This document shows, piece by piece, positions 31,272-58,020 of a DNA stretch of 64,000 bases (the stretch's first letter is position 1; each line of letters starts with the position of its first letter). Under the pieces are notes generated by a model, which worked only from the letters and a program-made list of their open reading frames with translations, had not been told where the DNA came from and searched no databases. A program made the position numbers and the translations under genes. This DNA is from Phoronis australis (lineage: Eukaryota > Animalia > Phoronida), in contig NMRA01000057.1 in the NCBI GenBank assembly GCA_002633005.1, forward strand, positions 1,148,595 through 1,212,594. Reading direction: 5' to 3'.

Positions 31272-31357
31272 TTAACCGGTGGTAGAGATCATCGCCATCC
31301 CAACAAAGGCTGCGCCGAGTATGATTTTGCTTGGAGTATTGTCGCATCCAGCCGAAA
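31272..31357 (-). CDS. IgSF gene terminal exon, distal copy: GPI-anchor-like signal (V)SAGCDNTPSKIILGAAFVGMAMISTTG*
   Basis: Acceptor tttcctcttacag, phase 1. Small-residue triplet SAG, spacer, hydrophobic tail, stop. Confidence 0.7.
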
Positions 31358-32507
31358 CTGTAAGAGGAAATCAATGACATGTAAGCTAATTTGTACATGT
31401 AAGTCTTTGACTTAAATAGCTAGAATCAGACCAACCTAAGGTGTACTTTTCCATGTGAAGCCCACACTGCGTTCTCTGTTCGCGGTAAATCGTGAGGTAG
31501 TGTTAGGTGGGATAATATAAGGTGAATTCAAGTTATCTGAAGTCAACAAAGGGTGATCTGGCAAACATCTTAGAAGTGACGAAAGCGAAAGATTCGGGAC
31601 TGGAAACGACCCTGCATTCAAGACCTTCAAGTTTGATCTGGGACCTGAACCAAGATGAAAGGAACAAAAGGTTTTGGCAGCACGCAGGTCAGACTCTACG
31701 CAGAGGGTTAACTAAAACGGCACGGAGGTTTAATGGATAACGATAGATTGTGTTGATAGTGCCAGTGAAGGGTGGTTATAGCCAAAATTCAAGCTTTATT
31801 ACAGTTGTAGTGCATACCTCAAGCTTAGGTAAGATGTTTAATCTATCGAATGCACTGACGGGGAAGAACTCCCCTAAATATACCTGTGGCATGTGAACAA
31901 TGTTTAACTGTCAGCGATTAAGAAGCCAAAACTTGATAGACTTGCGGGTGAATTGCCACACGTGCATGGCTTCTAGTGTGCCCGGAAAGAAACTGGCACT
32001 GTGTTGTATTCGTGCGAACGTTTGAAAAGAGATGAAAACGAGACTGATCTATCTACCTGTCTTTTTTGGTCTTCATAAATGTGGGAGTTATGAAATGATT
32101 GAAGTGGAGTTACTTTGAGTAGATTGTGTTTGACGTTTCTGTAGTATACCACAACTTAGTTTTGTACAAGTTAGATATTCAACTTAATTTTGACAGTATT
32201 AGAGGAATTTATAACAGCTAAGGTTCCAATTTGAGTCATCTTAAGTACATGTAACTGAATGAATTGTGCATTTTGAAGGCTTATCTGGGTACAAAAAGGC
32301 AAATGTCTTCCCTACATTGTCCACTTAGATGTCCCATTATTGCACGGAATAGCGCAAGGCACGCGCGAAACGCCCAGTCGGTGTCCGTACGACCCGCGTG
32401 TATGGTTGGTACAACGGCATTATTATGATTTATGTCTGATATAACATCTAATAATATTGTGCATAATTCAGTAACGTCATCCAGAATTTTATTTATGTCA
32501 GACATAA

Positions 32508-33439: not shown

Positions 33440-36122
33440 TCGATATTTTGTTCTCTGGCTCGTATTTATTTTCGAGTACGATTTCAAGCACACTGCCATA
33501 CCAAACTTGAAATTTGAGCATAGACTCCAAATTTTTACTCAAAATCGTACTCGAAATATAGATGAGATACACTTCAGTTCGAGTACACTCGAAAACTGAG
33601 TACGTGCTCGAAATTTCGAGTACAGATTTTTCGAGTATGACATTGAATACACCAAAGCTGAGTCTGTACTCGAGTTGAGTATGAAGTGTGAGTTTGAGCA
33701 TGATTCGAGTCTGAGTACGGAGATTGGAGACCGGGCCCAGATGTGACTAATTGCACATCACAGCAAAATGTGATGAGCCACCATTGTCGAATATATCTTC
33801 AACTCGTCAACAATATAAGCAGATGACCTGGTTCGTGTAGAAAGCATTGTCAAAAATTTACAAGAAGAAACGTAACCCTGCGGCATTCACCATAATGCCT
33901 AATCCGTACCACTACGATCGCGGCAATTTGGTAATTATTTACTTTTTATGTTTCGAACCTAGTTTTCGTCAGACAATTCTTTGGTGCATTAACTTGTTCT
34001 CTAATGCATTTTTCTACGTCTCTGTGGTTAATTATCGACACATTTTTAAGATTTAATATCCACGTTGGACTCGAAAGATCGGCTATTTAACTCACGCAAT
34101 GTCAACTTCCGCTTTGTTTATCGCAGTGAGCCTCGCTTTGGATTTTAATGTCCTTCGCGTGAATTTGATCTTTAATTCAATAAATAAATTATCTATCATT
34201 GTTTCCCAATTGTAAATCATCAATTTCCTGCTTGAATGGGAGTAACGTGTGGTCGGTATGATTTGACTTGGACATTAAACTCAGTACTGTAACCAGTGGT
34301 AACCTACTTTAGCAAACGATATTTTCTCGGTGGGAGCTTAGCATAAAATGTGTAGTAAGGTAGAGTACGTAGTCGCTTTAAATAAAAATTATTTCACAGA
34401 TTCACTTTAAGTCTATGTTGTTTCAATTTTATATGGTTTTAAGTAAAAACGTCATTTTAACAAGAAAAAGTCGACGTTTCTTGAAAGGTCACGGTGACTC
34501 CCCTCTGGCGATAATTCTCAAAATCAACTCGGATTCTAGAATACTAGGGATAAAGACTTCGCCATGTAAATAATCTAAATTAATTCCTTGGGTAGAATAC
34601 TGAAAAATTTGTTTGAGTATTCCAAAGCAGAAATTATATTTTCTACCAAAATTTTCTCATAATGCAGGACTTGTTGATGAAATGTGTTTTTCACGATTAT
34701 CAACTAAAATATCATATGTAGTTTACTGCATGCAGAGCCATTATTTTTAAAAATATTATTTTGTGAACTAGAGCGACAGGTAACCTACATGTGAACATGA
34801 AAATCATCGGCGAACATGTTTACAATGATATCGCGAAGGAGTGGAAAAGTGGACGATACGATTCTTGAAGGAAAGATAATCTCCAGTTCAGTTTTGGAAA
34901 ATTGTCTAGTACTCAATTTCACTAATATGCGCTTAATTTATGATAAATTCTACGTAATATTTTAGTAAGTGCATATACAGGTAGTCGAGACCGACTACAA
35001 TTAGGAATCAGACGTCAAATCCTAAAAATAAAACAGAAAACAATCTCGCAATGTTCATTTCAAATATGTAGATGCACCGCAGCTTGGATCAATCTTTGAT
35101 AGATTTTGAAGAAAAACCCGGAGGTGACTAGGCAAAGCGTTCCATTATGCAAACGTGTGCAATGTACATTACATGAATTTGTGCACGCTCAGAAAGAAGC
35201 CTCCTTGTATCCATGAGCTGCAACATTATAGCTCGCTGGTTGTACATACCTTCGTTACATGCACAACGTATTATCCGGATATCCTACGGAATGTTTTCAT
35301 GAAATTTCCAGCTGAAAGGAACATTAACAAGAAAAACACTCACAGTAAATTGTAATAACAATTAAGACGTTCATCAAGCAAGCAACCTTTGAATATCATA
35401 CAAAGGAAAAATATCGCGTGTGTAAAAAAGCTCGGTCAATGAAAAACAATGACATGTTCATAAAACAATACGCATTTTGCTCAACTTTGTAGAAAATAAT
35501 ACTCTTTAATGTAACATACATGTACGAGTAGGCCTACTTTATTTCCTGCCGTCGCGACAGTTGCAGTACTGTAATACGGAAAATCGCTTGGAATTCCCAA
35601 ATGAATAACAAGCAAAACAGATACAATAAATCCGAACAACAACACGTTCATCAAACAAGTAAAAACTCAACATTCTATAAACGAAAGATATCACGTGTGT
35701 AAAAAACATAATCCAGTCCGGCATATGTTAGGTTCTCAAAACAATATGCATTTTCCTGAACACTATAGAAAATAATACTTGTTAACATACATGTACAAGT
35801 GCTTAATTGTAAATCAGTTGGAATGCCTAAAATAACAAGCAAGACAAAGTAAATTCTAATAACAAATAAAACGTTCATCAAACTAGTAACCATTGAACAT
35901 CATCAGTCATGGAAAAATTAAAATCCAGTTACAGAAAAACACGTGATGGGTTAAGAAATCAACACGCAACTCGAACATTTTGCTGAGCATTGTAGAAAAG
36001 AATACTGTTTAACATTGGTGTACTTTGATTTCTGCCCTTGCAACGAATAAGATACAGTAAATCAGATGGAATGTTCAACAATAAAGATTGGCAGCGAGCC
36101 CGCCTCTGATATCTTCGAAGTA

Positions 36123-36208
36123 TCAACCGGTGGTAGAGATCATCGCCATCACAGCAAAGGCTGCGCCGAGTAAGATTTTGCTTGGAATATCGTCACATCC
36201 AGCTGACA
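36123..36208 (-). CDS. IgSF gene terminal exon, proximal copy: (V)SAGCDDIPSKILLGAAFAVMAMISTTG*
   Basis: Acceptor ctcttcttccag, phase 1. Same length and stop position as the 31272-31357 copy. Confidence 0.75.
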
Positions 36209-36805
36209 CTGGAAGAAGAGGTCAATCGCATGTACACGTACGCTTATTTATAAAATTTTGACAGAAATAGTTGGAATCAGACCAACTTAAGGTGTACTTT
36301 TCCCAGGTAAAGATCAGATTGCTTTCTCTGTTTGAAGTGAATCTTGAGGTGGTGTTAACTAGAATCATAAACGGTGAACTCCAGTAATCCAAAATCAATG
36401 ATGCGTGATCATAGGTGTTCGTTTTTACAAAGACCACTGGTTGGACAAGGTTAGAAGTGACGAAAGTGAGAGATTAGGGACTGGATACGAACTTACAGTA
36501 TGGTGTAAAGACATTCTAGTTTCACCAGGGACCTGAACAAGGATTTGATGGAATGAAACATTTTGACAGCGTGCAGATTAGACTGCACACGCAAAGGTCG
36601 ATCTAAGGAGATACTGAAGTTTCGTGTATAAGGATAGAATGTGTTGCCAGTCCCAGTGTGGGTCAAAGTTCATGTTTTGCTACTACATGTATCTTCTGCT
36701 AATGTCCAGCTTAGGTAAGATGTTTAATCTATTGAATGCAATGGCGGGGAAGAACTCCCCTAAATACNGATTGGCAGCGAGCCCGCCTCTGATATCTTCG
36801 AAGTA

Positions 36806-36891
36806 TCAACCGGTGGTAGAGATCATCGCCACCACAGCAAAGGCTGCGCCGAGTAAGATTTTGCTTGGAATATCGTCACATCCAGCTGACA
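36806..36891 (-). CDS. Third GPI-signal exon copy (V)SAGCDDIPSKILLGAAFAVVAMISTTG*, possibly an allelic assembly duplicate
   Basis: Lies in a near-identical ~680-bp duplication (36086-36767 / 36769-37455) joined by a single n. Confidence 0.55.
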
Positions 36892-37924
36892 CTGGAAGAA
36901 GAGGTCAATCGCATGTACACGTACGCTTATTTATAAAATTTTGACCGACTGAAATAGTTGGAATCAGACCAACTTAAGGTGTACTTTTCCCAGGTAAAGA
37001 TCAAATTGCTTTCACTGTTTGAAGTGAATCTTGAGGTGGTGTTAACTGGGATCATAAACGGTGAACTCCAGTAATCCAAAATCAATGAGGCGTGATCTTA
37101 GGTGTTCGTTTTTACAAAGACCACGGGTTGGACAAGGTTAGAAGTGACGAAAGTGAGAGATTAGGGACTGGATACGAACTTACAGTGTGGTGTAAAGACA
37201 TTCTAGTTTCATCAGGGACCTGAACAAGGATTTGATGGAATGAAACATTTTGACAGCGTGCAGATTAGACTGCACACGCAAAGGTCGATCTAAGGAGATA
37301 CTGAGGTTTCGTGTACAAGGAGGATAGAATGTGTTGCCAGTCCCAGTGTGGGGTGGTCAAAGTTCATGTTTTGCTACTATCTACTGCTAATGTCCAGCTT
37401 AGGTAAGATGTTTAATCTATTGAATGCACTGGCGGGGAAGAACTCCCCTAAATACATGTACTGTATGCCTATGGGATGTGAATGATGTTTAACTGTCAGT
37501 GATTAAGAAGTCAAAACTTGATAACCTTGCAGGTAAACTGCCCGGGCTTGCTGATCAATTTTAACGAGATTAGTAAGACCGTTTGGCAATGATGTTGTCC
37601 AGTGGTCACTGTTGTATGGCTCCTAATGCGCCCGAAAAGACGCTGCCGCTGTATTGCATTCGTGTGAACTTTGAAAGGAGATAAAAATTAATAAATTCAC
37701 CTGTTTTCGTTTGTTCTTCATGAATGTGGAAGTTATGAAATGAATGAAGGGTGTAGACTGCATTTGATGCAGCTGTTCCGATATCTATTACAACTTAGTT
37801 TTGGACAAATCAGATATTCAACTTCATTTTGAAGGCGTCAGACGAATGTAGCTACATGTAAAAGGTTCTAATTTGAGTTACCAGAAGTACATGGAACTGA
37901 ATGAATTGTACATTTTGAAGGCTT

Positions 37925-38510
37925 CACGATTTCATGTAATTATTTTGTCCAATGATGTACAAAAGTATTCTTCGCAATGTGCTTAGCAAAATGGAAATGA
38001 ACATGTTGTCATGTTACAGTAGAGAGCCACTGTCTGAATATCGAGCTGGGGTGTACCTGATGTGTTTACACTCCGCTGGCATATCATTTCTGACTCCAGT
38101 GCCTAGTCTCGAATCTTTTTATTCGAGATGGAGCTCGAAACAATGTTTGGCATTTTTTAATCTACTTTTGTGCGAACTCAAGATAAGTGTATTACTCTAT
38201 GCTCGAGTGCATTATGTCTTACGTGGATGATTTATTAAGTCCTAGTTTGCAATTGACAAATCCAACATTAAAGCTAAGAGTTTGAACTCGAAATTTCGAG
38301 TTTTCACTCGAGTTTGTAGCGCGATTATAAGGGTTTTTAAGTCCGAACTTGGACTAGACACTCATATGTATGAACTATAATTATTCGAGCACAATCTGAT
38401 AACCACTTATCTTGAGTTCGCACAAAAGGAGCAGAGAAATTGTCAACAATAATTTCGATTTCATTTCCAGTGCCTAGATTCGAGACCGGGCCCTGGTTTG
38501 TGATTTCTCT
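37925..38510. mobile_element. Inserted repeat rich in ctcgaa/ctcgag; same family as 33440-33750
   Basis: Absent from the paralogous position at about 32280. Shares the gagaccgggccc...tgtga end with about 33728. Confidence 0.55.
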
Positions 38511-39921
38511 ATGACATAAATTTGGGAAAACAGGCATACGTATGCCCTACTTTGTCCACTTCAATGTCCCATTTTTGCATGAAACAGCGCAGGGCCCCTC
38601 GCCCCAACGCCCGCATGTTGTTGGCACAGTGACATTATTGCGATATATGTATGACATCAATCGGAGTTATATCTGACTTAATTCGCGAATAATATCGCAC
38701 GATTTATCAATGTCATCCAGAATTTTATTTAAGTCAGACATAAATAACATGAATATGACCTACCGCTATTCTGTTTATATCTGACACCAAACATATTAAT
38801 GCCTGATGTAAGTCAGCCAATGAGAATAGTTGATACATTCATTGCTTCATTGATTTGCCCGCAATGTTTCCAGCTGTCGAGTGATTCAGTACCTTGTTAA
38901 CGGTTTTCAATAATGACACTCTTGTGCCGTTGGCCAAATCGGTGTACGTTACGCACATCAATTACATGTATGTGCGTCAAATAATTTTTAACGATATAAA
39001 TTGACGGGGTAGATTAATAATTTGCTTCACACGTAGGCCTGCTGTTCTCCGCATAAGTGGTCACAGGACAGTAATGAGATCACGAAAAAATATGGAGACT
39101 GTTGATATCTTTCTTGTGTTCAGCCAGTACAGTGTATATCTACATGATGCGAAAATTTGAGGGATCATACCAACATAAAACTGACGGCAATCGTTATGGT
39201 TTACCTGTTTTCCATTTTGTACGCGTATTTCAAATTTAATCTAAAGAGTGTCTACAGTGTTTACTACACAGTGAATTGTTAACATATTTCTTGTGTTCAG
39301 CCAGTCTTTGATTCGAAATTTCAGTGGTCATGACAACGTAAAATTCACAGCAATCGATATAGTTCATCTCACTACGCTAAATGTTTCGTGCTGTCAATGT
39401 TTGTAATCATGACAATATTTGTGTCAAATTTTTAGAGAATATTCACCTACAGGAACTCCATGCTGGGAGATCAAGCAATAGCAATTATGTCGAAACATAC
39501 ACCTGTACATCTGGAGTATTAGAAGAGTTTTTAGTTGACAGATCTTATGCTATGCATGTGAAGTGAATACTCTGATACGATAGTTTGTTTTCTGTCTACT
39601 ACAGTACCCGAGGAAGATAACTGATCAGTTATCGAAACGTTGTTTTTATGCTACTGTACGTTCTTGCGTTATAGTCCTAAGGCAATGGGACATCCTCCAC
39701 ACGTATGCTTGCTGTAATCCACAGAAGTGGTCACAGGACAGTAGATCAAGGAAATTAATTCTTGAGAGATTTCCAGTTTAGAAAAACAATTCGAACTACG
39801 TTGATAAGAAAATAATGCTACGAACTGTACTTGTGAAAACGGCATGTTAACTGTGGACGTTGAAGGTCATTGTAATCACTGAACAATGTTAATTTTGAAT
39901 GTGAGAAACATTTTGACATAC

Positions 39922-39957
39922 CTCCACCTCCTCCAGTTTCAGTTGGCGTAACTGTAG
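39922..39957 (-). CDS. 36-nt stalk microexon (A)TVTPTETGGGG
   Basis: tcttcag|CTACAGTTACGCCAACTGAAACTGGAGGAGGTGGAG|gtatg, phase 1-1. Confidence 0.75.
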
Positions 39958-40742
39958 CTGAAGATCAGAATTTAGCATTGTTACATACATCCACAAGTGA
40001 AAGTTGAGTCTCGAGACAAGTGCAAACTCAAGTGATCAAAGGTTGCTGTGTGTGAATGAAACTGAAACACGAGCACTTAGTAATCTAAATAGTATTTTCA
40101 GTGTTGATAGAATGAATACTCAGTGCTTTGTTAGCATCGTTCTTGTGTTCAGCCAGTCTATGATGCAAAATCTCAAAGCAATCGCTATTGTTCATCTGAA
40201 CACACTAAAGGGCTTCCTGGAGTTTAGATCATGACAATAACTATGTCAAACTCTTAATCCATGATGCTATTCACATACAGGCCCTCAAGGCTGAGAAATC
40301 ACTCCATAGCAGTGTTGGAACATGCATGTTGGAGTCGTGGTAGAGGTTTTGGTTGACAGATATTGTGTCCTGCATTGTGATGTGAAGTGAACGTTCTGAT
40401 ACCATAGATTATTTAGTGTCTACTACAGTACCTGAGGAAGATAATTGGTCAGTAAAGAAACGTTGTTTTCATCCTAGATTCTAGTGTTATTTTTGTTTTG
40501 TACATTTTACTTCTCGTTTCATTGGCCAAAAACAAATATTAAGCGGCAGAATAATTATTGATTAATATTCAAACGTCGTTTTCATGCTGCACTCTGGCGT
40601 CATTTTTTTCAGGATTTCTTACTTGTCATTATTGCACAAATACTAACATCATTCATTTGAAAGCGTCATACGGTGTGCCTACTATTAAGCTCTGTCTTAG
40701 GTGAACAAAGTTAATTTTGAGTTAGAGAAAAATATTTCATAC

Positions 40743-40778
40743 CTCCACTTTCTCCATTTCCAGTTGGCATAATCGTAT
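40743..40778 (-). pseudogene. 36-nt stalk microexon (D)TIMPTGNGESG with acceptor AG mutated to GG
   Basis: tttacgg|ATACGATTATGCCAACTGGAAATGGAGAAAGTGGAG|gtatg. Confidence 0.6.
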
Positions 40779-41394
40779 CCGTAAATCATAACTTAGTTTT
40801 AAAGTAAGTATTGCTACATGTATCTATACGTGAAAGTTGAGTCTCGATACAAATGGAAACCCAAGTGGTGAAAAGTCACTGCGTGTGAATTAGATTTTAT
40901 AGTGTATTCGATTTAACAAGTATAGCATTTTCGCAGTACACGTTTTGGATTAAGTACGACTGAGTAAAAACCAATGAAAACATAATCGCATCCATAGATT
41001 TTTGGGAGTTAACAGATCTTTAGAGAAAGTTCCCTTCAGCACATTGACCTTTCAAAGTTAAAGTACGATACAATCCTGATTTTCCAATTTCGTAAACCAT
41101 TACTGCATCATTTGGAAAAACTGTGATACAAAATGTCAAATTAGTCCGAAAGCAATGGGAAATCCTCAACACGCATGGTTACTGTAATCCACGGAAGTAC
41201 TCGCACAGCATTAGATAATGGAAAAATGAACTCTTGAGAGATTTGCAATTTAGAACAACAATTCGAACTGCGCTGATAAGAAAATGATGCTACTAAGTGT
41301 TCTTGTGAGAGCGACATGTTATCTGGGGAAGTTGAAGGTCTATGTAATCACTAAGCAATGTTAACTTTTGAATGTGAGAAACATTACGGCATAC

Positions 41395-41430
41395 CTCTAC
41401 CTCCTTCATCTCCAGTTGGCTTAACTGTAG
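41395..41430 (-). CDS. 36-nt stalk microexon (A)TVKPTGDEGGR
   Basis: ttttcag|CTACAGTTAAGCCAACTGGAGATGAAGGAGGTAGAG|gtatg. Confidence 0.75.
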
Positions 41431-42465
41431 CTGAAAATCATAACTTAGTTTTAAAATAAGTAGTGTTACATACATCTACAATTAAAAGTTGAGTATCAAG
41501 ACAAATGAAAACCCAAGTGAGGAAGAGGTACTGTGTGTGAATGAAATTAAAACACGAGCACTTAGTAATCTAATATTGTTTTTCAAAGTTGAGAGAATGA
41601 ATACACAGCGCTTTGTTAGCATCATTCTTCTGTTCAGCCAGTCTATGATGCAAAATTCGAGTGGTCATGCCAAAGTGAAATTCAAAACAATCGTTATTGT
41701 TCATCTGACCACATTAAAGGGCTTCCTGGGGTTAATGTTTTTGATTATGACAATAAAAATGTCAAACTTTTAATCCATGAGGCTATTCACATACAGGCGC
41801 TCAATGCCGAGAGATCACAATTTCAGTACTGGAACATACAGGTTGGAGTCGTGATAGAGTTTTTAGTTGACAGATCCTGTGTCATGCATTGTGATGTGAA
41901 ATGAACAACCTGATACGATAGTTTATTTCCTGTCTTCAATTGTACCTGAGGAAGATAATTCATTAGTATTGAAATGTTGTTTTCATCCTACATACTAGTG
42001 TCATTTTTGTTTTGTGCCATTTTTGTTTTGTACATTTCTCATTTGGCCAAAGACTAATGATATTCTCGTGAAAGCAGCATGTTTCCTGTGTATTATTGAG
42101 CTCTGTATTCGGTGAATAAAGTTCATTTCAAGTTAAATAATATTAGTATACCTCCACTTCCTCCATTTTCAAGTCGATTAATGGTGTGTTACTTTTAAAA
42201 TAAGTGCTCATGTCCATAAGGAAAAGTTGATACTCGAAACAAATGGGAACCCCAACTGCCAAAAGTTACTGAGTGCACTTGAAAATGAAAACATGAGTAC
42301 TTAGTAATCTACAACAGAATGAACACAAAGGGCACTGCTTTACTTTTCTTGCGTTTCATTTGCCTAAAAACAATCACTATTGCATTAAAAGCGATATATG
42401 GTCTGTCTACCGCTAATATCTGTACTCAATAAAGAAAGCTAATAATTTGACAACGTTTTTCTTAC

Positions 42466-42501
42466 CGCCACCTTCCCCATTTTCAGTTGGCATAATGGTA
42501 C
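42466..42501 (-). CDS. 36-nt stalk microexon (G)TIMPTENGEGG
   Basis: tttacag|GTACCATTATGCCAACTGAAAATGGGGAAGGTGGCG|gtaag. Confidence 0.75.
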
Positions 42502-43365
42502 CTGTAAATCATAATTTAGTTGTACATAAAATATTCTCACGTAGCTACAACTCAAAGTTGAAACTCAACACAAATGAAAACCCAAGTTGCGAAATTTTAT
42601 TGGGTGTACACTTAACTCATAAAAATAACATTAATGGGATGTCTGTTTTTTAATTTATACTCAATTAAAAGCAAAGAACTTAAAATTTAGTGCCAAAACC
42701 GTTCTGAATTTCTTGTCAACTTGTGCCTTAATAGCAAAAAGAACTTGTTCTTCAGTTGCTCAGCGGCCAGGTCAGTGGTCCTGACTTGTCTGACATAGTC
42801 GTAGCGCCACCATGTGGATTAGAGTCTAAAATTACGCTTTGCAAAACCTTGTATGACTGAGCAGGAGTACTCTCCAACAACTAATCTAACAAAACCTTCA
42901 AAACATGCTCACAATGAAGTACTACACTGGACACCAGAGTATAAAGTGATGTTCAACGTGTTTCGCTACTTTGACAACATGCAGATGGAAGTGCAGCCAG
43001 CTAATGTAAATGGCACTACCGCTTGAAGTATCCCGCTTATTGTTGACGACACGTGTACTGTACTATAGTATTGAGAAAAACACGGAGTAAGAAGCATTAG
43101 GCCGCTTTTGACTACACAAAGGCACTTGAATATCCCCATTTATTGCAGAATTTCCGCAACATTTGGAAAACTGTTTTCAAAAATGTCAAAATACTTTGAG
43201 CAACCACTAATGTCTGATGTTTTCAGTGACCGTAACTATTCATCAGAAAAACATGAGTTTGTGAGATTTGCAGATTGGAACAACTCGAATTTCGTTATAA
43301 AGAAAATGATGGCATTAATGCTGGATCAAAGTTAAATTTGTTATTATAGAAAAACATTGACATAC

Positions 43366-43401
43366 CTCTAACTTCTCCATTTGTGGTTGGCTTGGTTGTA
43401 T
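43366..43401 (-). CDS. 36-nt stalk microexon (D)TTKPTTNGEVR
   Basis: tttttcag|ATACAACCAAGCCAACCACAAATGGAGAAGTTAGAG|gtatg. Confidence 0.75.
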
Positions 43402-45781
43402 CTGAAAAACGTAATTAAAAGAGGCCTGAACTACATATTTTAGCATATTGATATGTATTTTGAAAGCATAAAGGCTTGTTACTGGCATTCACATACTCCT
43501 AAATAATGCACAATGATTTTCTTTTTTACTTTGAAAACTAAAAATTTCTCAGTTCCGTCAATCCCCATTGCAAGCGATGCTTTTCGTGACGTCACTGAGG
43601 CTGTACAGCACACAGAGATATAGGTCATTAGCCGTGCAACATGTGCATACTCACAACCTTTTTCGTTTTTCTTTCCTGTGACTTGATTCATCCCATGGCC
43701 TAGCCAGCCAGCTAGCTGCATGAAGACTAGCTTCAAAATACAACTGGGTACCAGTAGCACTGTGTGTTGAGCTCTGTTAGACTCCAAAATTTCACATAGC
43801 CCGGGTAGTTCTGCTCGTCACCTCGCCGTCGTGAAACTTATATCAACATGTAGAGCTCTAAGCCGGGAAGGGAGCGTGCAAATATCTGGGAGTCAACCGA
43901 CACTCACCTTGCCGGCTGGAGCCATTTAAGTGAAAAACAATCTAGTAAACATTTTATTTAGCAATTTTCCGCCTTTTGTAACAAGGAAAACAGTACGCTC
44001 AACACGTGCTACATGTATTTCCTAAAATTTTGAGACATCTGTCGGGAAATGATGACAGCTTCGCAGGGGCAAATATTTTTATGAAATTCGTTTATCTGGT
44101 ATGAAAATATTAAAAACTTGTAAGGAAATGAAATCAGCTCTAATAATTTGTTGTGACATGTACACAACTTCGAAGAACAGTTCGACTGCTTGTTATAATT
44201 GGAAGTACAACTAAGTGAACGAAACTGGCCATTAAGGCAACACGTGACGGCGCCCAAAGCCGACCTTCAAGAGAGCACCCAAATTTTAAGCAGCAGCTGG
44301 AGTGAACGGCAGAACGCCAACAACTTCAGGGAAGAGTGCCATTTTAACGACACTAATTTAGTGTCAGATTTTATTTGATAAGTTTTTACCCACATCGTTG
44401 CAAAGGCCGCTGTATATATTTACTATATAATACAGCTTACACCAAGGCAAGGCTACGCAGTCGGGTCCCTTTCCTGGCTCGTGCCGAGAACGGCATCGTT
44501 CCACTAACAGTCAACACTACACGGCAGTAAACTTGAATTATGAACTTTTGAGAGCCGAGATTGCAGACAAATAATACACATTAAACACAGTTCTGTAGCC
44601 GATAGGCATTCACCCAATAAGCTATATACATAATAAGCTTAAATTATGTTATTGCCTTCACCCACAGTACAGACTCAGTGACGTCAGACGCGCGTTAGCC
44701 AATAGTATCTAACATTGGAAAAACGCTTTTTTTTCAAAATTGTGAAAGAGTATTATAGAGGTGCTTTCTGATATAGACTTTATTCATCAGTTAAATTACA
44801 TTAAAAACGCTTGTTATTGTCTTTCAGGAACCTTTTAAATGTTAATTTCCATCAACGTTGGTATCTCGAAGCAAAAATTGGTGCGCGAGAAAATTATAAG
44901 CGCAAACACCAAAAATATACTCCTCACGTACAGTTATAACGCATGAGATGTCCACATTTATTAACTAACAATTCTTAACCTTTGCAGTTAAGTGAAAATA
45001 CACTTTTGGATTGGCAACAAAAACGTTAATTCATCCTTCAGCATTTAGAGCGGTCAAGGTCCGTATATGTAATCTATGTCCATGAGCCCGGAGGCTGATT
45101 CCGAAGGCACGACATTGCACGAAATCCATTGCTGTTGTTGTGAGCAAAAGAACTCCCGAAAAAATGATGACCTAGCAAAATCTTTGAAATTTATTCACGA
45201 AGAAACTTACTCAGAACACTACATTAATGCTGGATGAGTTTTGCTACTTTGATAACATGCAAATGACGATTCACCCAGCAATTGTCAACTGCACTGATGC
45301 CTGAAATTTCACCTGACAACAAAAGTAGTGTGGATTACGGACAGAAACACGGAGTAGCAATTCACAAGAATTCATAAAATTGCCTGAGATTTGATTATAT
45401 TTGCAAATATAACCACAACTTGAGGTTGCAAACTGGTGAATACACCTGTAGGAACACATATCTGCAGTACATGTATTTTATCAGATCGTTCAAGCACCAC
45501 ATGAAGCAGACACGTCCAACAAAGAAACTGAAGCGTAGTCACCTCAACTGAAACCCACACGACAAAATTTCGGGCTTACAAAATACAATACAATCAATTC
45601 CTTAACACTGCCAGACTTTAATTCCATTTCCTGAGTAAAATGTGTACTCTTTCACAATGCTACGAAAGATTTTCAGTACGAGTGGCGCTGCGTCTGAGAG
45701 TAGGGTAACATGATACTGACTTCCTACTAAATCCATGACAACAGGACTTAGTGCTCCAACACAATTTAAATAATATCTTAC

Positions 45782-46102
45782 CAGTCACTTCAATGGCCCC
45801 AGTTTCAGCTGACAAAGTAGCCTGTCTGTTGGACACTTGACATCTGAACTTTGCACCATCATCAGCTACATCCAAGTTGACCGTCAGTATGCTGGTGACG
45901 CTAGTGGTTCCATCACTGTTGTTGGCGGTAGTCGTGTTAATATTCTCTGTTATATCTGCGAAAGCACCGCTACCTATCCGACGTGACCACAACATAGATG
46001 CTTGAGGTTTACCCAAGTTAGCTGTACACGTGAGGACAGTTGGTCCTGCTCCAACAAAAACAGACGTCGGAACTCCAGATATATATGGTGAGCTTGGGAG
46101 TA
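45782..46102 (-). CDS. Intact Ig domain exon (C2-set, CD80/nephrin-like), copy A
   Basis: ttccacag acceptor, gtaag donor, 321 nt, phase 1-1. Motifs LTCTANLGKPQASMLW, SDGTTSVTSILTV, DDGAKFRCQVSN. Confidence 0.92.
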
Positions 46103-48583
46103 CTGTGGAAACAAAAAAGGCGTGACACCGTGGCAAGATTGTCATAAAAACGCTCATAACAATAATGTTATATTTTCAAGAAAAGGTTGGCTTGATTGTA
46201 TCTGCAAAACGTAATTAAAAGAGGCCTGAACTTCATATTTCAGCATACTAATATTTATTTTGAAAGTATAAAGGTTTGTTACTGACATCCACATTTTCCT
46301 AAATAGTGCACAGTGTTTTTCTTTTTTACTTTGAAAAGTGAAAATTTCTCACTTGCAAGCGATGCTTTTCGTGACGTCACTGAGGCTGTACAGCACAAAG
46401 AGATATAGGTCATTAGCCGTGCAACATGTGCATACTCACAACCTTTTCCGTTTTCTTTCCTGTGAATTCGATTCATCCCATGGCCTAGCCAGCCAGCTAG
46501 CTGTATGAACACTAGCTTCAAAATACAACTAGGTACCAGTAGCACTTTGTGTTGAGCTCCGTTAGAATCCGAGGTTTCACATAGCCCGGGTAGTTCTGCT
46601 CGTCACCTCGCCGTCGTTAAACTTATATCAACATGTAGAGCTCTAAACCGGGAAGGGAGCGTGCAAGTATCTGGGAGTTAACCGACACTCACCTTCCCGC
46701 TGGAGCCATTTAAATGAAAAACAATCTAGTAAACGTTATTTTATTTTGCAATTCTCCGCATTTTGTAACAATGAAAACATTACGCTCAACACGCGCTATT
46801 GCCTAAAGTTTTGAGACATCTTTCGGGAAATGATGACAGCTTCGCAGGGGCAAGATTTTTTATGAAATTCGTGTTTCTGGTATTAAAATACTAAAAACTT
46901 GTAAGGAAATGAAATCAGCTCTAATAATTTGTTGTGACATGTACACAGCTTCGAAGAACAGTTCGACCGCTTGTTATAATTGGAAGTTCAACTCGGTGAA
47001 CGAAACTGGCCATTAAGGCAACACGTAACGGTGCCGAAAGCCGAACTTCAAGAGAGCATCCAAATTTTAGCAGCAGCCGGAGTGAACGGCAGAACGCCTA
47101 CTTTTTCAACACCAGTAAATAATTTAGTTTACTCAAGGAAGAGTGTCATTTTAATGACACTAATTTTGTGTCAGATTTTATTTGATAAGTTTTTACTCAC
47201 ATCGGTGCGAAGGCCGCTGTATATATTTACTATATAATACAGCTTACACCAAGGCAAGCCTACGCAGTCGGGTCCCTTTCCTGGCCCGTGCCGAGAACGG
47301 CATCGTTCCACTAACAGTCAACACTACACGGCAGTAAACGTGAATTATGAAATTTTGAGAGCCGAGATTGCAGACGAATTATACACATTTAACACAGTTC
47401 TGTAGCCGAGGCATTCACCCAATAAGCTATATACATAATAAGCTTAAATTATGTTATTGCCTTCACCCCACAGTACAGACTCAGTGACGTCATACGCGCG
47501 TTAGCCAATAGTAATTAACATTGGAAAAACGTTTTTTTCAAAAAATGAAAGAGTCGCAAAGAGGTGTTTTCTGATATAGACTTTATACATCAATTAAATT
47601 ACATTAAAAACGCATGTTATTGTCTTTCATGAACCTTTTAAGTATTTGCATCAACGTTCGTATCTCGAAGCAAGAATTGGTGCGCGAGAATATTATAAGC
47701 GCAAACACCAAAAATATACTCCTCACGTACAGTTACAACGCATGAGATGTCCACATTTATTAACTAACAATTCTTAACCTTCGCAGTTAAGTGAAAATAC
47801 ACTTTTGGATTGGCAACAAAAACGTTAATTCATCCCTCAGCATTTAGAGCGGTCAAGGTCCGTATATGTAATCTATGTCCATGAGCCCGGAGGCGGATTC
47901 CGAAGGCACGACATTGCACGAAATCCATTGCTGTTGTTGTGAGCAAAAGAACTCCCGAAAAAAATGATAAACTAACAAAATCTCTGAAATTTATTCACGA
48001 AGAAAACTTACTCAGAACACTACATTAATGCTGGATGAGTTTTGCTACTTTGATAACATGCAAAGGACGATTCACCCAGCAATTGTCAACTGCACTGATG
48101 CCTGAAATTTCACCTGACAACAAAAGTAGTGTGGATTACGGACAGAAACACGGATTAGCAATTCACAAGAATTCATCAAATTGCCTGAGATTTGATAATA
48201 TTTGCAAATATAACCACAACTTGAGGTTGCAAACTGGTGAATACACCTGTAGGAACACATGTCTGCAGTACATGTATTTTATCAGATCGTTCAAGCACCA
48301 CATGAAGCAGACACGTCCAACAAAGAAACTGAAGCGTATTCACCTCAACTGAAACCCACACGGCAAAATTCCGGGCTTACAAAATACAATACAATCAATT
48401 CCTCAACACTGCCAGACTTTAATTCCATTTCCTGAGTAAAATGTACACTCTTTCACAGTGCTACGAAAAATTTTCAGTATGAGTGGCGCTGCGTCTGAGA
48501 GTAGGGAAACATTGATAGTGACTTCCTACTAAATCCCTGACAACAGAATTTAGTGCTCCAACACAATTTAAATAATATCTTAC

Positions 48584-48904
48584 CAGAAACTTCAATGGCC
48601 CCAGTTTCAGCTGACAAAGTAGCCTGTCTGTTGGACACTTGACATCTGAACTGTGCACCATCATCAGCTGCATCCAATTTGACCGTCAGTATGCTGGTGC
48701 CGCTAGTGGTTCCATCACTGTTGTTGGCGGTAGTCGTGTTAACATTCTCCGTTATATCTGTGTATGCACCGCTACCTATCCGACGTGACCACAACATAGA
48801 TGCCTGTGGTTTCCCCAAGTTAGCTGTACACGTGAGGACAGTTGGTCCTGCTTCACCAAAAACAGACGTCGGAGCTCCAGATATAGATGGTGAGCCTGGG
48901 AGTG
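48584..48904 (-). CDS. Intact Ig domain exon (C2-set, CD80/nephrin-like), copy B
   Basis: Same splice sites, length and Cys-Trp-Cys core; DDGAQFRCQVSN. Confidence 0.92.
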
Positions 48905-49246
48905 CTGTGGAAACAAAAACGTGACACCGTTGCAAGATTGTCATAAAAACGCTCATAACAATAATGTTATATTTTCAAGAAAAGGAAACGTTAAACATAT
49001 CTGGGGGCTCTTCCGTGAAAACTGATTTCGCTGAGGCAAATCTTAAATTTCAGCCAATATTGAAATAAAACTTAAATTTGTCGCAGATTCATTTCAAGAC
49101 AGAAGTCATAAATCTGACTGAAGTTTTTGACTTAATTTTTGTCTCAATTTTGATTACTTTTCAGGATGTGGAAGTTTAAAAGTTTCCAGGTTGAAACAAA
49201 TTTCCGATTAAGTCAAAAATGAAGTCGGTTTCTTGGAACAGGTACC

Positions 49247-50333
49247 TGTCAGAATATAGTCTGACAATATTATTAGTTGTTTTGTTTTGTTTTGTTGTTC
49301 AGTTTGATTGGCATGACCCCAGAGTTAAGTACAGTTATGATGAAATTTGTTTACTACAGAATAGTATGGAACTTTTTAGTAGAATGAGCTCAGTAGTGAT
49401 GATGTAATTTGTTTACGACAAAATAATGTGGAACTCTTTAGAAGACTGATTTTCAGAACAGTGATGACGTAATTTGTTTACTACAGTATAGTGTGGAACT
49501 TTCTAGAAGACTCTAGCATGACAGTGATTAATGCAGTCCGGAATATTCTAGAGACTAGTACATGTTTGTAGAATGTTTGGGTAGATTCTGGAAAGTTCTA
49601 GAATGTGCTTGAATTGATGAAAATTTCAAGAACAATGCATTAGGCTATAAATACACAAGTACGGGTTTGTGTTATTCAGATCAAGTCAGATAATCAGCAG
49701 TTCAAGAAAGTTAATCAGGAGAATAACAGTTGAGTTACAGTGGAGAGAATCAGCAGTTACAGCGATATTAAATAGAGAGTCAACTATAGAGACAACAGGT
49801 TATTGAATCGACGAGTGTAACAGTTGCTGAACTTGTCTCAGAAGTTCATCACAATTCCGAGGCTTCGCAGCATTGGCTGGAGCATAAACAGATATTACGT
49901 CGGACGTTTTGTTTCAGTAGACTTTTGAACGTACGGTCGGGATTAACAAAGTATTAACTGGAACCAGTCTTCAGTCAATCATCGCACCGAAAGCTATTAG
50001 CACCGGTCTGTAACAACCTGCGCTCACCCATACACGGGGAAAAACGTGACAGTCCCTGAACTACTGTTTTTCTACTTCGTGAATCAAACTTCAATGTCGT
50101 GCTGATGAGATTGTGCCACAGTGCGAGGCATTCATTTGTGGCAGTTATTGCATTGGAATTCATTTTCACTTATATGTTTTGTAACTCTGCCGTTTTTCAA
50201 TCAAAGTCTACGTTTATTTTCAAACTATGAATTACTAATATCCTAAATTAAATTCATTTAGTAAGCAATTGATCCGGTTACTTCATGAAATTTAGCGCAC
50301 GTGCCACCACAAGCATCGCTTAAATTTATTACA
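49247..50333 (+). mobile_element. Possible solo LTR (Gypsy-like)
   Basis: TGT...ACA ends, three ~60-bp internal tandem repeats at 49337-49530, ttctaga repeats, ctataaata at about 49645, and attaaa near the 3' end. No TSD found. Confidence 0.45.
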
Positions 50334-51045
50334 AGGGAAAAATAAACGGACGGAAGTTAGTGAAATTGTTCGCTAAAAATCGAAAAACATCTGTGAAACG
50401 CAGGCCCCCGTCGACGTTCTATTTTCGTTGACATAACGAGTTGGGCTAGATTTTGAATGGTGAATACTAAGCCATAGTCCCAGCTTTCTTATTCGTGGCT
50501 AATTTTGGGAAAACGGGGACTTTGCATTAGGCTTATCTACATATCTCAAAAGTCAATTTCAAGAAAGTTCCCAAGAATACACTTACTGTACACGTTTAGT
50601 ACCAACCACCAGGTGTCAGTGCAATATTACTAGAACATACAATCAAATGCCAGGAAATATTGTGTCCGTACCTTTCCCATTCAAAAGTCATCTGCTTCAT
50701 GAAAGCATTCATATGAGGACAGGAATAGAGCGGCCAGCTAATGTTATCCTCCTGACTTAGTTAACTTGTTTACATCTACTCTCTACATCGGATAGTATTA
50801 ATTTTTGGTGAGCAATTACCAAGGGCCAAGCCTCATCAACCAGCAGACAACAGTTAGAAATTGAGGAAAGCCAAGTCAAGTGCAAAATGTCACCATTCTG
50901 ATTATCCTTGAAATAAAGCCGTATGTTAAATTTACACCTTTGCGCAGAGGTGGGTAAAATCTCATCACGTAAATCTGACGCAACATTAGTGTCATTAATA
51001 CTGCACTTCATTACCTATTTTTGAAAGTTTGACACCACTAGTGCG

Positions 51046-51307
51046 CAGTGGCGGATCTACGAGGGGGTTCAGGGGGTTTAAACCCCCCTTGGGCCAGGAC
51101 ACCATAAAAACAAAAACAAAAACGTCTCCAGCAAAACAAAAACGGCACCGCTAGCGTGTGTAAACCCCAAGTAAACCAACAAAAAATTGAGGGGGGTTCA
51201 CTCTGAAAATATAATTTTTTGCATTGTGAAGTGCTGAGTTTTCGTGGCTTCTCGACAAACAGCGCGGAGATCAATTGTGCGCGCGCTTCCGTCGACACTT
51301 TTGAGGA
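51046..51307 (+). mobile_element. Second copy of the 16855 element's left end, running into gap 51308-52215
   Basis: cagtggcggatctacg...aaacgtctcca...gcggagatcaattgtgcgcg is shared with 16855-17145. Confidence 0.85.
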
Positions 51308-53879
51308 NNNNNNNNNNNNNNNNNNNNNNNNNNNNNNNNNNNNNNNNNNNNNNNNNNNNNNNNNNNNNNNNNNNNNNNNNNNNNNNNNNNNNNNNNNNNN
51401 NNNNNNNNNNNNNNNNNNNNNNNNNNNNNNNNNNNNNNNNNNNNNNNNNNNNNNNNNNNNNNNNNNNNNNNNNNNNNNNNNNNNNNNNNNNNNNNNNNNN
51501 NNNNNNNNNNNNNNNNNNNNNNNNNNNNNNNNNNNNNNNNNNNNNNNNNNNNNNNNNNNNNNNNNNNNNNNNNNNNNNNNNNNNNNNNNNNNNNNNNNNN
51601 NNNNNNNNNNNNNNNNNNNNNNNNNNNNNNNNNNNNNNNNNNNNNNNNNNNNNNNNNNNNNNNNNNNNNNNNNNNNNNNNNNNNNNNNNNNNNNNNNNNN
51701 NNNNNNNNNNNNNNNNNNNNNNNNNNNNNNNNNNNNNNNNNNNNNNNNNNNNNNNNNNNNNNNNNNNNNNNNNNNNNNNNNNNNNNNNNNNNNNNNNNNN
51801 NNNNNNNNNNNNNNNNNNNNNNNNNNNNNNNNNNNNNNNNNNNNNNNNNNNNNNNNNNNNNNNNNNNNNNNNNNNNNNNNNNNNNNNNNNNNNNNNNNNN
51901 NNNNNNNNNNNNNNNNNNNNNNNNNNNNNNNNNNNNNNNNNNNNNNNNNNNNNNNNNNNNNNNNNNNNNNNNNNNNNNNNNNNNNNNNNNNNNNNNNNNN
52001 NNNNNNNNNNNNNNNNNNNNNNNNNNNNNNNNNNNNNNNNNNNNNNNNNNNNNNNNNNNNNNNNNNNNNNNNNNNNNNNNNNNNNNNNNNNNNNNNNNNN
52101 NNNNNNNNNNNNNNNNNNNNNNNNNNNNNNNNNNNNNNNNNNNNNNNNNNNNNNNNNNNNNNNNNNNNNNNNNNNNNNNNNNNNNNNNNNNNNNNNNNNN
52201 NNNNNNNNNNNNNNNCTCACACACACACACACTCACTCACTCACACGCCAGTGCACTGGTTTCTGTACCAACTTTTGACACAAGAAAGAGTGTGTTGTAT
52301 TAGGTTGCAGAATGGATTTTTGTGTAAACCTGTCTTCAACTAATTAAAATGAAACAGTCATGCAAATGCCATGGAGTCAACCCACAGTCCACACAGTCTG
52401 CATCCGAGGGCTGAAAGTTGCAAGTGTACTAAGGAGCCTCATAGGCTGTTAACAAAGATACTGGTCAATGTCGGCTTCGCGGCAGTCGCTAGTGGGTTAA
52501 TCAATGTTTGTTGTGGTGTGTTACGTAAGATACTTCACCTAACACTCGGGGGTTTTGTACATCAAAGCAGCATTACTAATGTTCGGAATGATCTATAACA
52601 CATTGATCAGTGACAGTTACATCCATCAATACTGAATTTTCATGCTGTCAATTCGACATTGGTTATTTGTGAGGTCAGGTTAAAATCCAAGCCCATGGGG
52701 ACCGTGACAAATCTCCATTATACAATTTGAATACCTCCAATGCTGTCCGGAAATCTATTATACGAGAACGTGAAAATATATTATGTTTGTTTTCACCCGA
52801 CCTTTGGTCCCTCAAGCTTGAGGGCTTGTTCTGCGTAGAGGAGATAAACATCGCTTCTGCAACCGTCCCTGAATGGACAACATCGGTTTTAAGCAGGTGA
52901 CTGCATTACATGTACCTAGCTAGATTTTCCTTTCCATTGCAGATCTGTTGTCGAAGCATGCTTCTACGTCGGAAACAAAGAACGAAGTCTTTGAAAATGA
53001 ACACCTGGTCTTAAAGAAATGTATGTAAGTTGTTAATTTACTAAGCGCTTAGCGGGAGGCAGGCATATACATGTAGGGGATCGGGGTTGTAAAATTCGGT
53101 ACAGCTGAATGAGGAGAAATAACACGTAATAGTTTCCGGGAGGAAAGAGCACGGTGAGGTAATTCTTAAGTATCAGTCCACGGACCACAGTCAGTACAGA
53201 CAAAAGTGGTAAGGAGGGGGGAGGGGTCAGCCATCCAGAACCACCTTTAGTCTAATAAATCACATTAGGGTATAGAGAAATTGGGTGAAGTATGATACCA
53301 CAGAGTTTGGTGGTTTTGGAGGTACTAGAGTAGTCTTCTGGGGGGGGGCAAAAAGGCAATTTCTTTATGCGGAATGAGTCATTTTTACTAAAATTTCTAC
53401 TGCAGTGTCTGCTTCAAACAGAATAAGTTTGATATCACGTGATAGGTTCTTAACCAATGTAAGTAAAAAATGGCACCGACGCTAAAATATCCGTTACCAT
53501 GGTAACACTGGACCTGTTTCAGTGGAGGTACAATCATGTCATGCTTGTGAAAAACCAGCAGTATGTTTTACCCTCATAGCGAAGCTGCCGGCACGAGGAA
53601 ACTGAAAATAATAACATGGTTAAGTAGAAAACGCCATACCCTTGCCGTAGCATAATACAATAATTAACAGAACTGGTCTGCTTAAACGTTTTTAATTATT
53701 TTTCGGTAAATAAAACTACAAGAATGGATCAACTGAAATTTGAAATTTTCGGATGTAATAACTTCCTTTCTCAACAAAAACAGAAATAAAGTAAAATCAA
53801 ACACAAAATGACAATTGACATATAAGATGTGATGTAATGAAAATGATACATTTTTGCGTAAAAAATTCAATGACATATT

Positions 53880-54397
53880 TTAAGAAGTTTTCATGTTCAA
53901 TCCATGAGGTTCTATTGCATTAAGTTTGTCTATCCAATATTGTTCTCTTTTGAGTCTGTGAGGGGTACTGGGGTGTTGGAGTTTTTCTATTATTTGTACA
54001 GAAAGATCTTGAATATTAGAATATTATGGTTTTTGGAATTGAAATGATTACCTATAGTATCAGAAATGTTTTTATGTATTATATTAAATCTATGATTACG
54101 AAACCGAGTTTGTAGATTATGTTGTGTTTGTCCTACGTATTGAATAGAACATTTTTTACAAGTTATAAGGTAAATAATATTGTTGGTGGTGCAATCAGAA
54201 TAATGTTTTATTTCAAAGTTTTCATTGGTTTGGGAAGACTGGAAAAAAGTGCTATCGTTGATGAAGTTACACATTTTACACCTAGTTTTGTTACATTGTG
54301 TGTTGCCAATAGGTTTGTCAGTTTGGTGTATATTGTCGATATTAGCTTTAACTAAATAATTTTTTTAGATTTTTACATTTTCTCCAAGAAATTATAG
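53880..54397 (-). mobile_element. Penelope-like element relic, GIY-YIG endonuclease
   Basis: CTTNNIIYLITCKKCSIQYVGQT...RFRNHR...IGNHFN, then RLKREQYWIDKLNAIEPHGLN after a frameshift. Confidence 0.92.
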
Positions 54398-57300: not shown

Positions 57301-57551
57301 TCCAACGTTTCTGCACTGAATTCACTATCATCACTTTGATTAATTTTCACATCTAATTATCATTATCTATATTGCACTTCGTAATCAACCTGCACACGGA
57401 ACGATACACCCTTCAGTCCTTACATACACGAGCATGATAAAATTTAAATATTTTCATTTAGGCTACAAATTTAAAGCTTTTTTATCAACATAGCACACAC
57501 TTTTTTATGGTTGCTCGTCCACTGCATTGTTTATATTCATCATTATTGTCA

Positions 57552-58020
57552 TCAAATGTTGTTTCTTGAGACACCGTGTTCACAATCTCGGCAGTCACAC
57601 AACTTTGAACATGGCGTGCCCGACATTATGCAAGAGCACTTTTTTGTACTACAACCACTCTTTTTACACTTGAAATTAAGATTTTTCATGGCACTTTCTG
57701 GGGCTAATGGCAGAGTCATCCAGTGGAAATTTAGACTACCCTGCTCCACAAGTCACCCGTTACGATGAACTGGAGATGGTGCATTGACATGATGTTGCAA
57801 GGCTCGTTTGTGAATGGCACACTGGTAGTTTGCTCTTTTTTCATGTAGTAGCAATTAATTATGATTAGCACGAATAATCCAAGTTAATAAAAGTGGTAGC
57901 TTGCTTTGTTAACTGTTGATGGCTGGTGAGCCGTACAGCTTGCATACAAACGATTCAATGTCTTCCATGAGTTGACCAGGAAACGCAAAGTAATGTTAAG
58001 CCCAACTTTAATGACAAAGT
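57552..58020 (-). mobile_element. Academ-type DNA transposon relic, C-terminal region with Cys-rich finger
   Basis: IESFVCKLYG, LLHEKRANYQCAIH, HWMTLPLAPE, CKKSGCSTKKCSCIMSGTPCSKLCDCRDC. Confidence 0.75.

What the first reader, a model, noticed from the sequence alone, without database searches (positions are those of the whole stretch)
39922..43401. Array of exactly 36-nt microexons encoding a 12-aa T-x-x-P-T...G-rich stalk repeat
Seen: five full-length copies, all 36 nt and stop-free, with conserved Pro-Thr and GT donors. The flanking duplicated intron sequence is visibly diverged and carries indels. One copy lost its acceptor (40779-40780), one at about 42152 keeps only its donor half, and one at about 46185-46201 is cut by a duplication. 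Inference: a probably O-glycosylated spacer built by exon duplication, adjustable in 12-aa steps, with exons being gained and lost.
Basis: partly seen in the sequence, partly recalled or inferred. Interest (0 to 1): 0.75.

Follow-up and report, generated by a model that had tools for sequence, protein, structure and literature searches.

The report
Microexon stalk of variable length
Four tiny 36-base exons are spliced between an immunoglobulin-type domain and a predicted lipid-anchor tail of an invertebrate surface protein, forming a likely sugar-coated stalk, and RNA from the same species also shows a longer form with extra copies, likely a second allele, which is a known design seen in a new animal.

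Summary
The microexons are real. On the minus strand a C2-type Ig exon splices to four 36-nt phase-1 exons (43366, 42466, 41395, 39922) and then to a terminal exon that reads like a GPI-anchor signal. Each junction has 12-66 reads in each of two RNA runs. The copy with the GG acceptor is skipped (18 and 21 reads).

Exons are hardly better conserved than their flanks (pN 0.28, pS 0.26). The latest duplication unit is a two-exon block (24 aa).

About 40% of transcripts follow a second path through copies absent from this assembly, about 7-9 repeats against 4, ending in their own variant of the last repeat. Two alleles explain this best (about 60%); a near-identical paralogue or long-range splicing is not excluded. 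Skipping of a live copy is rare (4 reads, one run).

O-glycosylation, GPI anchoring and function are predicted only, and the gene's 5' end was not found. The design matches IgG3 hinge exons and Schistosoma SmPoMuc repeats: a new member of a known kind.

The parts
48584..48904 (-). Ig exon copy 1 (CD80-like C2-set domain, 321 nt, phase 1-1), from the 2.8-kb tandem duplication; its splicing was not tested directly
   Evidence: Pfam PF08205 E 9.5e-08; AG/GT ends and 20 nt differences from copy 2
46185..46201 (-). First 17 nt of a microexon-1 copy with intact acceptor and no donor; reading on reaches a stop after 8 codons; sits at the duplication junction (2-nt shared CC)
45782..46102 (-). Ig exon copy 2 (C2-set domain), spliced to microexon E1
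   Evidence: Pfam PF08205 E 6.7e-08; junction 45782->43401 with 66 and 34 reads; model pLDDT 76, best fold match B7-H6, TM 0.71
43366..43401 (-). Microexon E1 (live)
   Evidence: junctions Ig->E1 66/34 and E1->E2 58/33 reads
42466..42501 (-). Microexon E2 (live, b type)
   Evidence: E1->E2 58/33, E2->E3 48/29 reads
42152..42187 (-). Dead copy: full 36 nt, donor kept, acceptor removed by a 13-nt deletion, Pro-Thr lost
   Evidence: no joint to it among the 15 of 17 joints shown
41395..41430 (-). Microexon E3 (live, a type)
   Evidence: E2->E3 48/29, E3->E5 18/21 reads
40743..40778 (-). Copy E4 (b type, copy of E2) with acceptor AG>GG; skipped. RNA carries live E4-like variants with a different 5' end
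39922..39957 (-). Microexon E5 (live, a type, copy of E3), last repeat
   Evidence: E3->E5 18/21, E5->terminal exon 12/23 reads
39672..42678 (.). Two-exon block duplication: 39672-40978 (E5+E4) matches 41142-42678 (E3+E2), 64-91% identity per 100 columns, 33 gap openings in 1266 aligned columns
   Evidence: blastn
36806..36891 (-). Coding part of the terminal exon: small residues (S-A-G), short polar spacer, hydrophobic tail, stop; predicted GPI-anchor signal
   Evidence: translation and hydropathy; junction reads from E5 and its variant
36123..36208 (-). Near-identical second copy of the terminal exon in a 683-bp tandem repeat joined at a single N (36768); likely an assembly duplicate
   Evidence: 52 of 61 and 39 of 49 RNA reads and all laid DNA contigs carry this copy's letter at 36832
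31272..31357 (-). Older third copy of the terminal exon (about 71% region identity), frame and acceptor intact; use not tested

Best explanation
The 36-nt exons are spliced in series between a C2-type Ig exon and a terminal exon, giving a Thr/Pro/Gly-rich stalk that is predicted to be O-glycosylated and to hold the Ig domain above a predicted GPI anchor, and the longer form seen in RNA is likely a second allele with extra exon pairs. Shown: the exon chain, skipping of the GG-acceptor copy, a 1.3-1.5-kb two-exon genomic duplication, and extra exon variants in RNA. Inferred: because every copy is phase 1-1 and 36 nt, unequal crossing-over between the repeated introns adds exon pairs and acceptor mutations remove single exons without breaking the frame. 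The stalk therefore drifts in length between haplotypes (4 repeats, 48 aa, as assembled; about 7-9 repeats in the other form). Selection would keep length in frame and the T-x-x-P-T core, not the rest of the sequence.
For: Junction reads in runs X5/X6: Ig->E1 66/34, E1->E2 58/33, E2->E3 48/29, E3->E5 18/21, E5->terminal 12/23. Second path: E3->E4-like variant 23/14, E4-like->E3-like variant (a joint that goes back) 30/21, E4-like->E5-like variant 14/14, E5 variant->terminal 10/9. The second path makes up 0.44 and 0.38 of the counted exit joints, near a heterozygote's half, and uses its own sequence variant of the last repeat. E4+E5 are a block copy of E2+E3, the same alternation that the second path extends. 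Stalk composition: 12 Thr, 12 Gly, 5 Glu, 4 Pro of 48. Terminal exon: S-A-G, spacer, hydrophobic tail (11-residue hydropathy up to 2.7), stop with no basic or cytoplasmic tail; reading this as a GPI signal rests on recalled consensus features. Pro at +3 and -1 of Thr as a favoured O-GalNAc context is also recalled.
Against: No DNA from the RNA animals was available, so alleles are not proven. Both transcript types share the same letter change in E1 relative to the assembly (67 of 68 and 38 of 38 reads), which also fits one long locus or a gene-converted paralogue. Paralogues exist: loose ends at 42469 (39/39 reads), 42500 (37), 45800 (47), and run X7 expresses only a different Ig copy. Exons are not more conserved than flanks and pN is about pS (0.28 vs 0.26); the chance of no indel in 36 nt is 0.39 for one pair. 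The repeat count of the long form is an estimate from short-read joints (1.2-2.1 back-joints per exit joint). The two runs come from one study and may be one animal or pool. The signal-peptide exon was not found, so the surface location is inferred.
Confidence: 0.6

Rival explanations
1. The longer form comes from a near-identical paralogue (tandem gene copy) with more stalk exons, and the gene in this window is fixed at four repeats.
For: The Ig exon belongs to a multigene family: Ig depth of about 170-180 in X5 against 68 at E1, other Ig exon ends, and a separate set of microexon variants. DNA contig depth over the Ig exon (324) and the E4 bin (307) is well above the single-copy pieces (39-51), though the tool warns this is no copy number.
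Against: Both forms share E1, E2, E3 and the terminal exon to within single letters, while other paralogue-like reads differ on both sides of E2. The shares near one half in both runs fit alleles.
Confidence: 0.25
2. One long locus, collapsed or shortened in this assembly, makes both forms by regulated alternative splicing, so stalk length is tuned in the cell.
For: Both forms share the E1 letter change. Four reads in X6 skip the last repeat. Repetitive exon blocks are known to collapse in assemblies (SmPoMuc, PMC2576457 passages). A nemertean relative has annotated isoforms that differ in the stalk (P0153, P0053, P0154, P0155).
Against: It needs two mutually exclusive last repeats and an all-or-none skip of several exons. 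No joint from one E5-like exon to another is among the 15 of 17 joints shown. The ratio is similar in both runs.
Confidence: 0.12
3. The 36-nt units are intronic repeats, not exons, or are spliced noise without function.
For: Exon identity is about equal to flank identity and pN is about pS.
Against: Strand-specific junction reads at exact AG/GT ends for all four live copies in two runs, in frame with the Ig and terminal exons.
Confidence: 0.03

Closest known systems
Human IGHG3 (IgG3) hinge exons (PMC8674132; passages read)
   Same: Short duplicated exons in a repeated intron unit form a spacer next to Ig domains; alleles carry 2-5 exons (32-77 aa); length affects function in cited work.
   Different: IgG3's hinge is disulphide-bonded and lies between domains of an antibody, with 15-aa steps. 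Here the spacer is Cys-free, Thr/Gly-rich, next to a predicted GPI anchor, gains exon pairs and keeps dead copies. No homology is implied.
Schistosoma mansoni polymorphic mucins, SmPoMuc (PMC2576457; passages read)
   Same: A microexon (27 bp there) inside a roughly 1-kb genomic repeat, variable repeat number between individuals and genes, multigene family, poor assembly of the repeats.
   Different: SmPoMuc repeats are over 93% identical in their introns and reach about 20 copies near the 5' end of a gene without Ig domains (the last point recalled). Here copies are 58-83% identical, few, and form a juxtamembrane stalk.
CADM1 stalk exons 8/9 and related Ig-superfamily stalk microexons (PMC5385562; passages read)
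   Same: Small in-frame Thr-rich exons between the membrane-proximal C2 domain and the anchor; O-glycans and stalk length set shedding there.
   Different: CADM1 is a transmembrane protein whose exons are alternatively spliced and are not tandem copies of one unit. Here skipping of live exons is rare and the anchor is a predicted GPI.
Lineus longissimus 'hemicentin-1-like / cell adhesion molecule 4-like' XP_064651547-550 (P0053 cluster)
   Same: Ig domain of the same C2 kind (33% identity, E 3.7e-07), Thr/Pro stalk, annotated isoforms that differ by 10-12 residues in the stalk.
   Different: Transmembrane protein with a cytoplasmic tail and further Ig domains; different stalk sequence; orthology not shown.

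Membership tests
Ig superfamily, CD80-like C2-set domain (PF08205) | Profile score above the Pfam cut-off | tested here: met
   32.4 and 32.9 bits against cut-off 21
Ig superfamily, CD80-like C2-set domain (PF08205) | Ig beta-sandwich fold like B7-family constant domains | tested here: met
   single-sequence model pLDDT 76.4; best Foldseek match B7-H6 E 3e-4, TM 0.71; best PDB sequence match CD276 E 1.3e-07
B7 / nectin / CADM-type V-C2 adhesion proteins | N-terminal V-set domain and signal peptide | tested here: inconclusive
   no V-set or convincing signal exon in 48950-64000 by ORF list, tblastn of stored homologues or exon scan; a gap of about 900 N (51307-52215) and the window end may hide them
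B7 / nectin / CADM-type V-C2 adhesion proteins | Transmembrane helix with cytoplasmic tail | tested here: not met
   spliced terminal exon stops right after the hydrophobic stretch
GPI-anchored proteins | C-terminal small residues, polar spacer, hydrophobic tail, no cytoplasmic tail (features recalled) | tested here: met
   27-residue reading of all three terminal exon copies and hydropathy; no dedicated predictor was run
GPI-anchored proteins | N-terminal signal peptide and actual lipid attachment | not testable with these tools
   5' exon not found; no protein data
Mucin-type O-glycosylated stalks | Ser/Thr/Pro-rich low-complexity segment | tested here: met
   16 of 48 residues Thr or Pro, no Ser, 12 Gly; more Gly-rich than a typical mucin domain
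Mucin-type O-glycosylated stalks | O-glycans on the protein | not testable with these tools
   no glycoproteomic data
Exon copy-number polymorphic spacers (IGHG3 hinge, SmPoMuc type) | Symmetric small exon within a tandem exon-plus-intron repeat | tested here: met
Exon copy-number polymorphic spacers (IGHG3 hinge, SmPoMuc type) | Exon number differs between alleles at one locus | tested here: inconclusive
   two transcript types at about 56:44 and 62:38 with extra copies absent from the assembly; no matching DNA
Alternatively spliced stalk microexons (CADM1 type) | Frequent regulated skipping of live exons | tested here: inconclusive
   only one skip of a live copy listed (0 and 4 reads), in two expressing runs of one study; 2 joints not shown

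The most novel reading that the evidence does not exclude
A family of GPI-anchored invertebrate Ig recognition proteins carries an exon-level length polymorphism: haplotypes that differ about two-fold in stalk length coexist at high frequency, arise by two-exon block turnover, and set how far the Ig domain reaches from the cell, so stalk length is itself a selected self/non-self or pathogen-recognition trait.
Probability: 0.15. Interest if true: 0.62.

Novelty: new member of a known kind. Interest (0 to 1): 0.36.

Why it matters
It is a clean, RNA-backed snapshot of exon birth and death: one locus holds live copies, two copies killed through their acceptors, a copy cut by a duplication and a block duplication, while the species' RNA holds a longer version. 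If the two forms are alleles, it is an invertebrate counterpart of IgG3 hinge-exon polymorphism and can be typed by one PCR. It also warns that short-read assemblies and gene models under-count such stalks. It does not open a new mechanism: microexon-built stalks and their copy-number variation are described in other animals.

Tried and rejected
No whole genome is held for this window, so paralogues could not be mapped. Word-indexed protein searches with the Ig exon found nothing, longer or near length; this is weak evidence. The HMMER search gave 162 matches at E up to 0.001 (150 listed), all distant; the closest is an 80-aa unnamed fragment at 49% identity. Of the 150, one had two or more T-x-x-P-T-x-x-x-G/E motifs, spaced far apart and not in tandem. 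The ESM Atlas gave no result. The run search listed no indexed RNA holder; the raw-read runs it added were laid instead. Search for upstream V-set or signal exons found none that convinces; the single weak signal-like candidate at 53653-53572 was not accepted. Other small AG..GT candidates in 36900-48580 have no joints among those shown. Expression of Ig copy 1 is open: the Ig1 letter appears in 99 of 171 and 62 of 140 reads at 45898, but paralogues may carry it. The AG>GG site could not be typed as allele or fixed change; it is not among the difference rows shown (511 and 189 rows hidden). Glycosaminoglycan attachment was considered and set aside: the four live copies hold no Ser. Literature: four searches for this combination in invertebrates gave no relevant paper (listings only; zero hits); a search for GPI signal features gave zero hits; Hydractinia Alr papers were seen as a listing only. 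No supplements were read.

Full report
What is in the sequence. The window is AT-rich, repeat-laden animal-type DNA with assembly gaps. The finding lies on the minus strand. Five 36-nt copies stand at 43366-43401 (E1), 42466-42501 (E2), 41395-41430 (E3), 40743-40778 (E4) and 39922-39957 (E5). All are open in phase 1-1, keep Pro-Thr and have a GT donor; E4 has GG in place of AG. Six places reach at least 24/36 identity to E5, E5 itself included, against a mean of 0.01 in 100 shuffles. The sixth, 42152-42187, is a full-length copy whose acceptor went in a 13-nt deletion and whose Pro-Thr is lost; it is not a donor half. A 17-nt piece at 46185-46201 keeps its acceptor, has no donor and runs into a stop.

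The host gene. Upstream lie two 321-nt phase 1-1 exons (48584-48904, 45782-46102) that pass the Pfam cut-off for the CD80-like C2-set domain. A single-sequence model has pLDDT 76 and matches B7-H6 and CD276 constant domains best. The two exons come from a 2.8-kb tandem duplication at 92% identity whose junction cuts E1; they differ at 20 nt, 13 non-synonymous and 6 synonymous by count. Downstream, the exon starting at 36891 reads S-A-G, a short polar spacer, a hydrophobic tail and a stop. By recalled consensus features this is a GPI-anchor signal; no predictor was run. The signal-peptide exon and any V-set exon were not found; a gap of about 900 N or the window end may hide them. Homologues are distant. 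Named ones come from a nemertean, two molluscs and a hemichordate, which does not place the organism.

Splicing is shown. Raw reads of three RNA runs labelled as the same species, and one DNA run, were laid on 36775-46300; two of the RNA runs were then laid on 36775-43450. About 18-19% of each RNA run was read. In X5 and X6 the junction reads all fall on one strand: Ig->E1 66 and 34, E1->E2 58 and 33, E2->E3 48 and 29, E3->E5 18 and 21, E5->terminal exon 12 and 23. E3->E5 skips the GG-acceptor copy. No joint to the assembled 5' end of E4 or to the 42152 copy is among the 15 of 17 joints shown. X7 covers only a different Ig copy. The assembled gene thus gives a 48-residue stalk with 12 Thr, 12 Gly, 5 Glu, 4 Pro and no Ser.

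A second, longer form. One search also lists E3->an E4-like exon with a different 5' end (23, 14), that exon->an E3-like variant (a joint going back; 30, 21), that exon->an E5-like variant (14, 14), and an E5 variant with one changed letter->terminal exon (10, 9). These exons are not in the assembly. This path makes up 0.44 and 0.38 of the counted exit joints, with 1.2-2.1 back-joints per exit joint. That gives one or two extra exon pairs, so about 7-9 repeats against 4; the figure is an estimate from short reads. Only one skip of a live copy is listed (0 and 4 reads). Further loose ends at 42469 (39 and 39 reads), 42500 (37) and 45800 (47) show more exon variants that differ on both sides of E2 or in the Ig end, best read as paralogues.

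How it arose. Alignment of 39672-40978 with 41142-42678 maps E5 on E3 and E4 on E2: the latest duplication copied two exons with their introns, a 24-aa step. The longer form continues the same alternation. Both dead copies are of the E2 type and lost their acceptors in different ways, each a 12-aa step down. Since all copies are symmetric, neither gain nor loss shifts the frame. Unequal crossing-over is the inferred cause.

Results against the functional reading. Exon identity between copies (58-83%) is about that of the flanks for the closest pairs. Among the four live copies pN is 0.28 and pS 0.26 (11 codons, 6 non-independent pairs). The chance of no indel in 36 nt is 0.39 for one pair. So the sequence outside T-x-x-P-T and the Gly-rich end is free to drift, as expected of a spacer but also of a near-neutral one. 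Both transcript types share an E1 letter that differs from the assembly (67 of 68, 38 of 38), which fits one long locus or a converted paralogue as well as two alleles. The two expressing runs are of one study and may not be independent animals.

Verdict on mechanism. Real spliced stalk: shown. GPI anchor: predicted, about 0.8. O-glycosylation at the T-x-x-P-T core: predicted from composition and a recalled enzyme preference. Origin of the long form: allele about 0.6, near-identical paralogue about 0.25, splicing of one long locus about 0.12. A function for the length difference is untested.

Comparison with what is known. Human IGHG3 alleles carry 2-5 hinge exons in a repeated unit (PMC8674132, passages). 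Schistosoma SmPoMuc genes repeat a 27-bp exon in 1-kb units with variable number (PMC2576457, passages). CADM1 sets shedding through small Thr-rich stalk exons (PMC5385562, passages). A nemertean Ig protein has annotated stalk isoforms. The locus works like these but is a member of none; the spliced terminal exon fails the transmembrane criterion for B7/CADM proteins. My searches found no paper on this gene or this combination in invertebrates, within the open library only; no supplements were read. Earlier notes of this scan, unchecked, describe microexon stalks in several other genomes, which fits a recurring design.

Score. Observation solid and now backed by RNA; design known; the probable length polymorphism and the preserved dead copies add modest interest. 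Interest 0.36; new member of a known kind.

Noticed in passing
window 36080-37455: 683-bp tandem repeat holding the terminal exon twice, joined at a single N (36768); RNA and DNA reads mostly carry the second copy's letter, so likely an assembly duplicate. A similar 98.5% duplicate flanks the gap at 11484-13109.
   Followed up: partly
window 29770-32507 vs 34684-38743: Older duplication (about 71%) of the last intron, terminal exon and 3' region; the exon copy at 31357 keeps acceptor and frame and could be an alternative GPI-type tail.
   Followed up: partly
window 43385-48985: 2.8-kb tandem duplication adds a second Ig exon and leaves an acceptor-only microexon piece that would lead to a stop if used.
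   Followed up: partly
window 45782-46102 (reads of X5, X6, X7): Reads from other Ig copies with different exon ends; X7 expresses a relative heavily but not this gene's microexons, suggesting a multigene family with sample-specific expression.
   Followed up: partly
window 11385-13887 and about 14326-15425, minus strand: Broken LINE-type reverse-transcriptase remnants, recognised by eye from the six-frame translation.
   Followed up: no
window 53880-54364, minus strand: Broken GIY-YIG-like reading frame as in Penelope-type elements, recognised by eye; weak tblastn match to P0123.
   Followed up: no
window 57552-57752, minus strand: Cys-rich reading frame resembling transposon-associated CXC domains, by eye.
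   Followed up: no
window 38135-38458 and 43453-45042: High-copy repeats (very high DNA contig depth, RNA on both strands); the first has 55-nt inverted arms like a MITE.
   Followed up: no
window 49325-49512: Three-copy 62-nt tandem repeat upstream of Ig exon copy 1.
   Followed up: no
whole window: The 8-mer TACATGTA occurs 35 times against about 2 expected, and TACATG/ATACAT insertions recur among RNA reads at 38833, 39136 and 41469.
   Followed up: no
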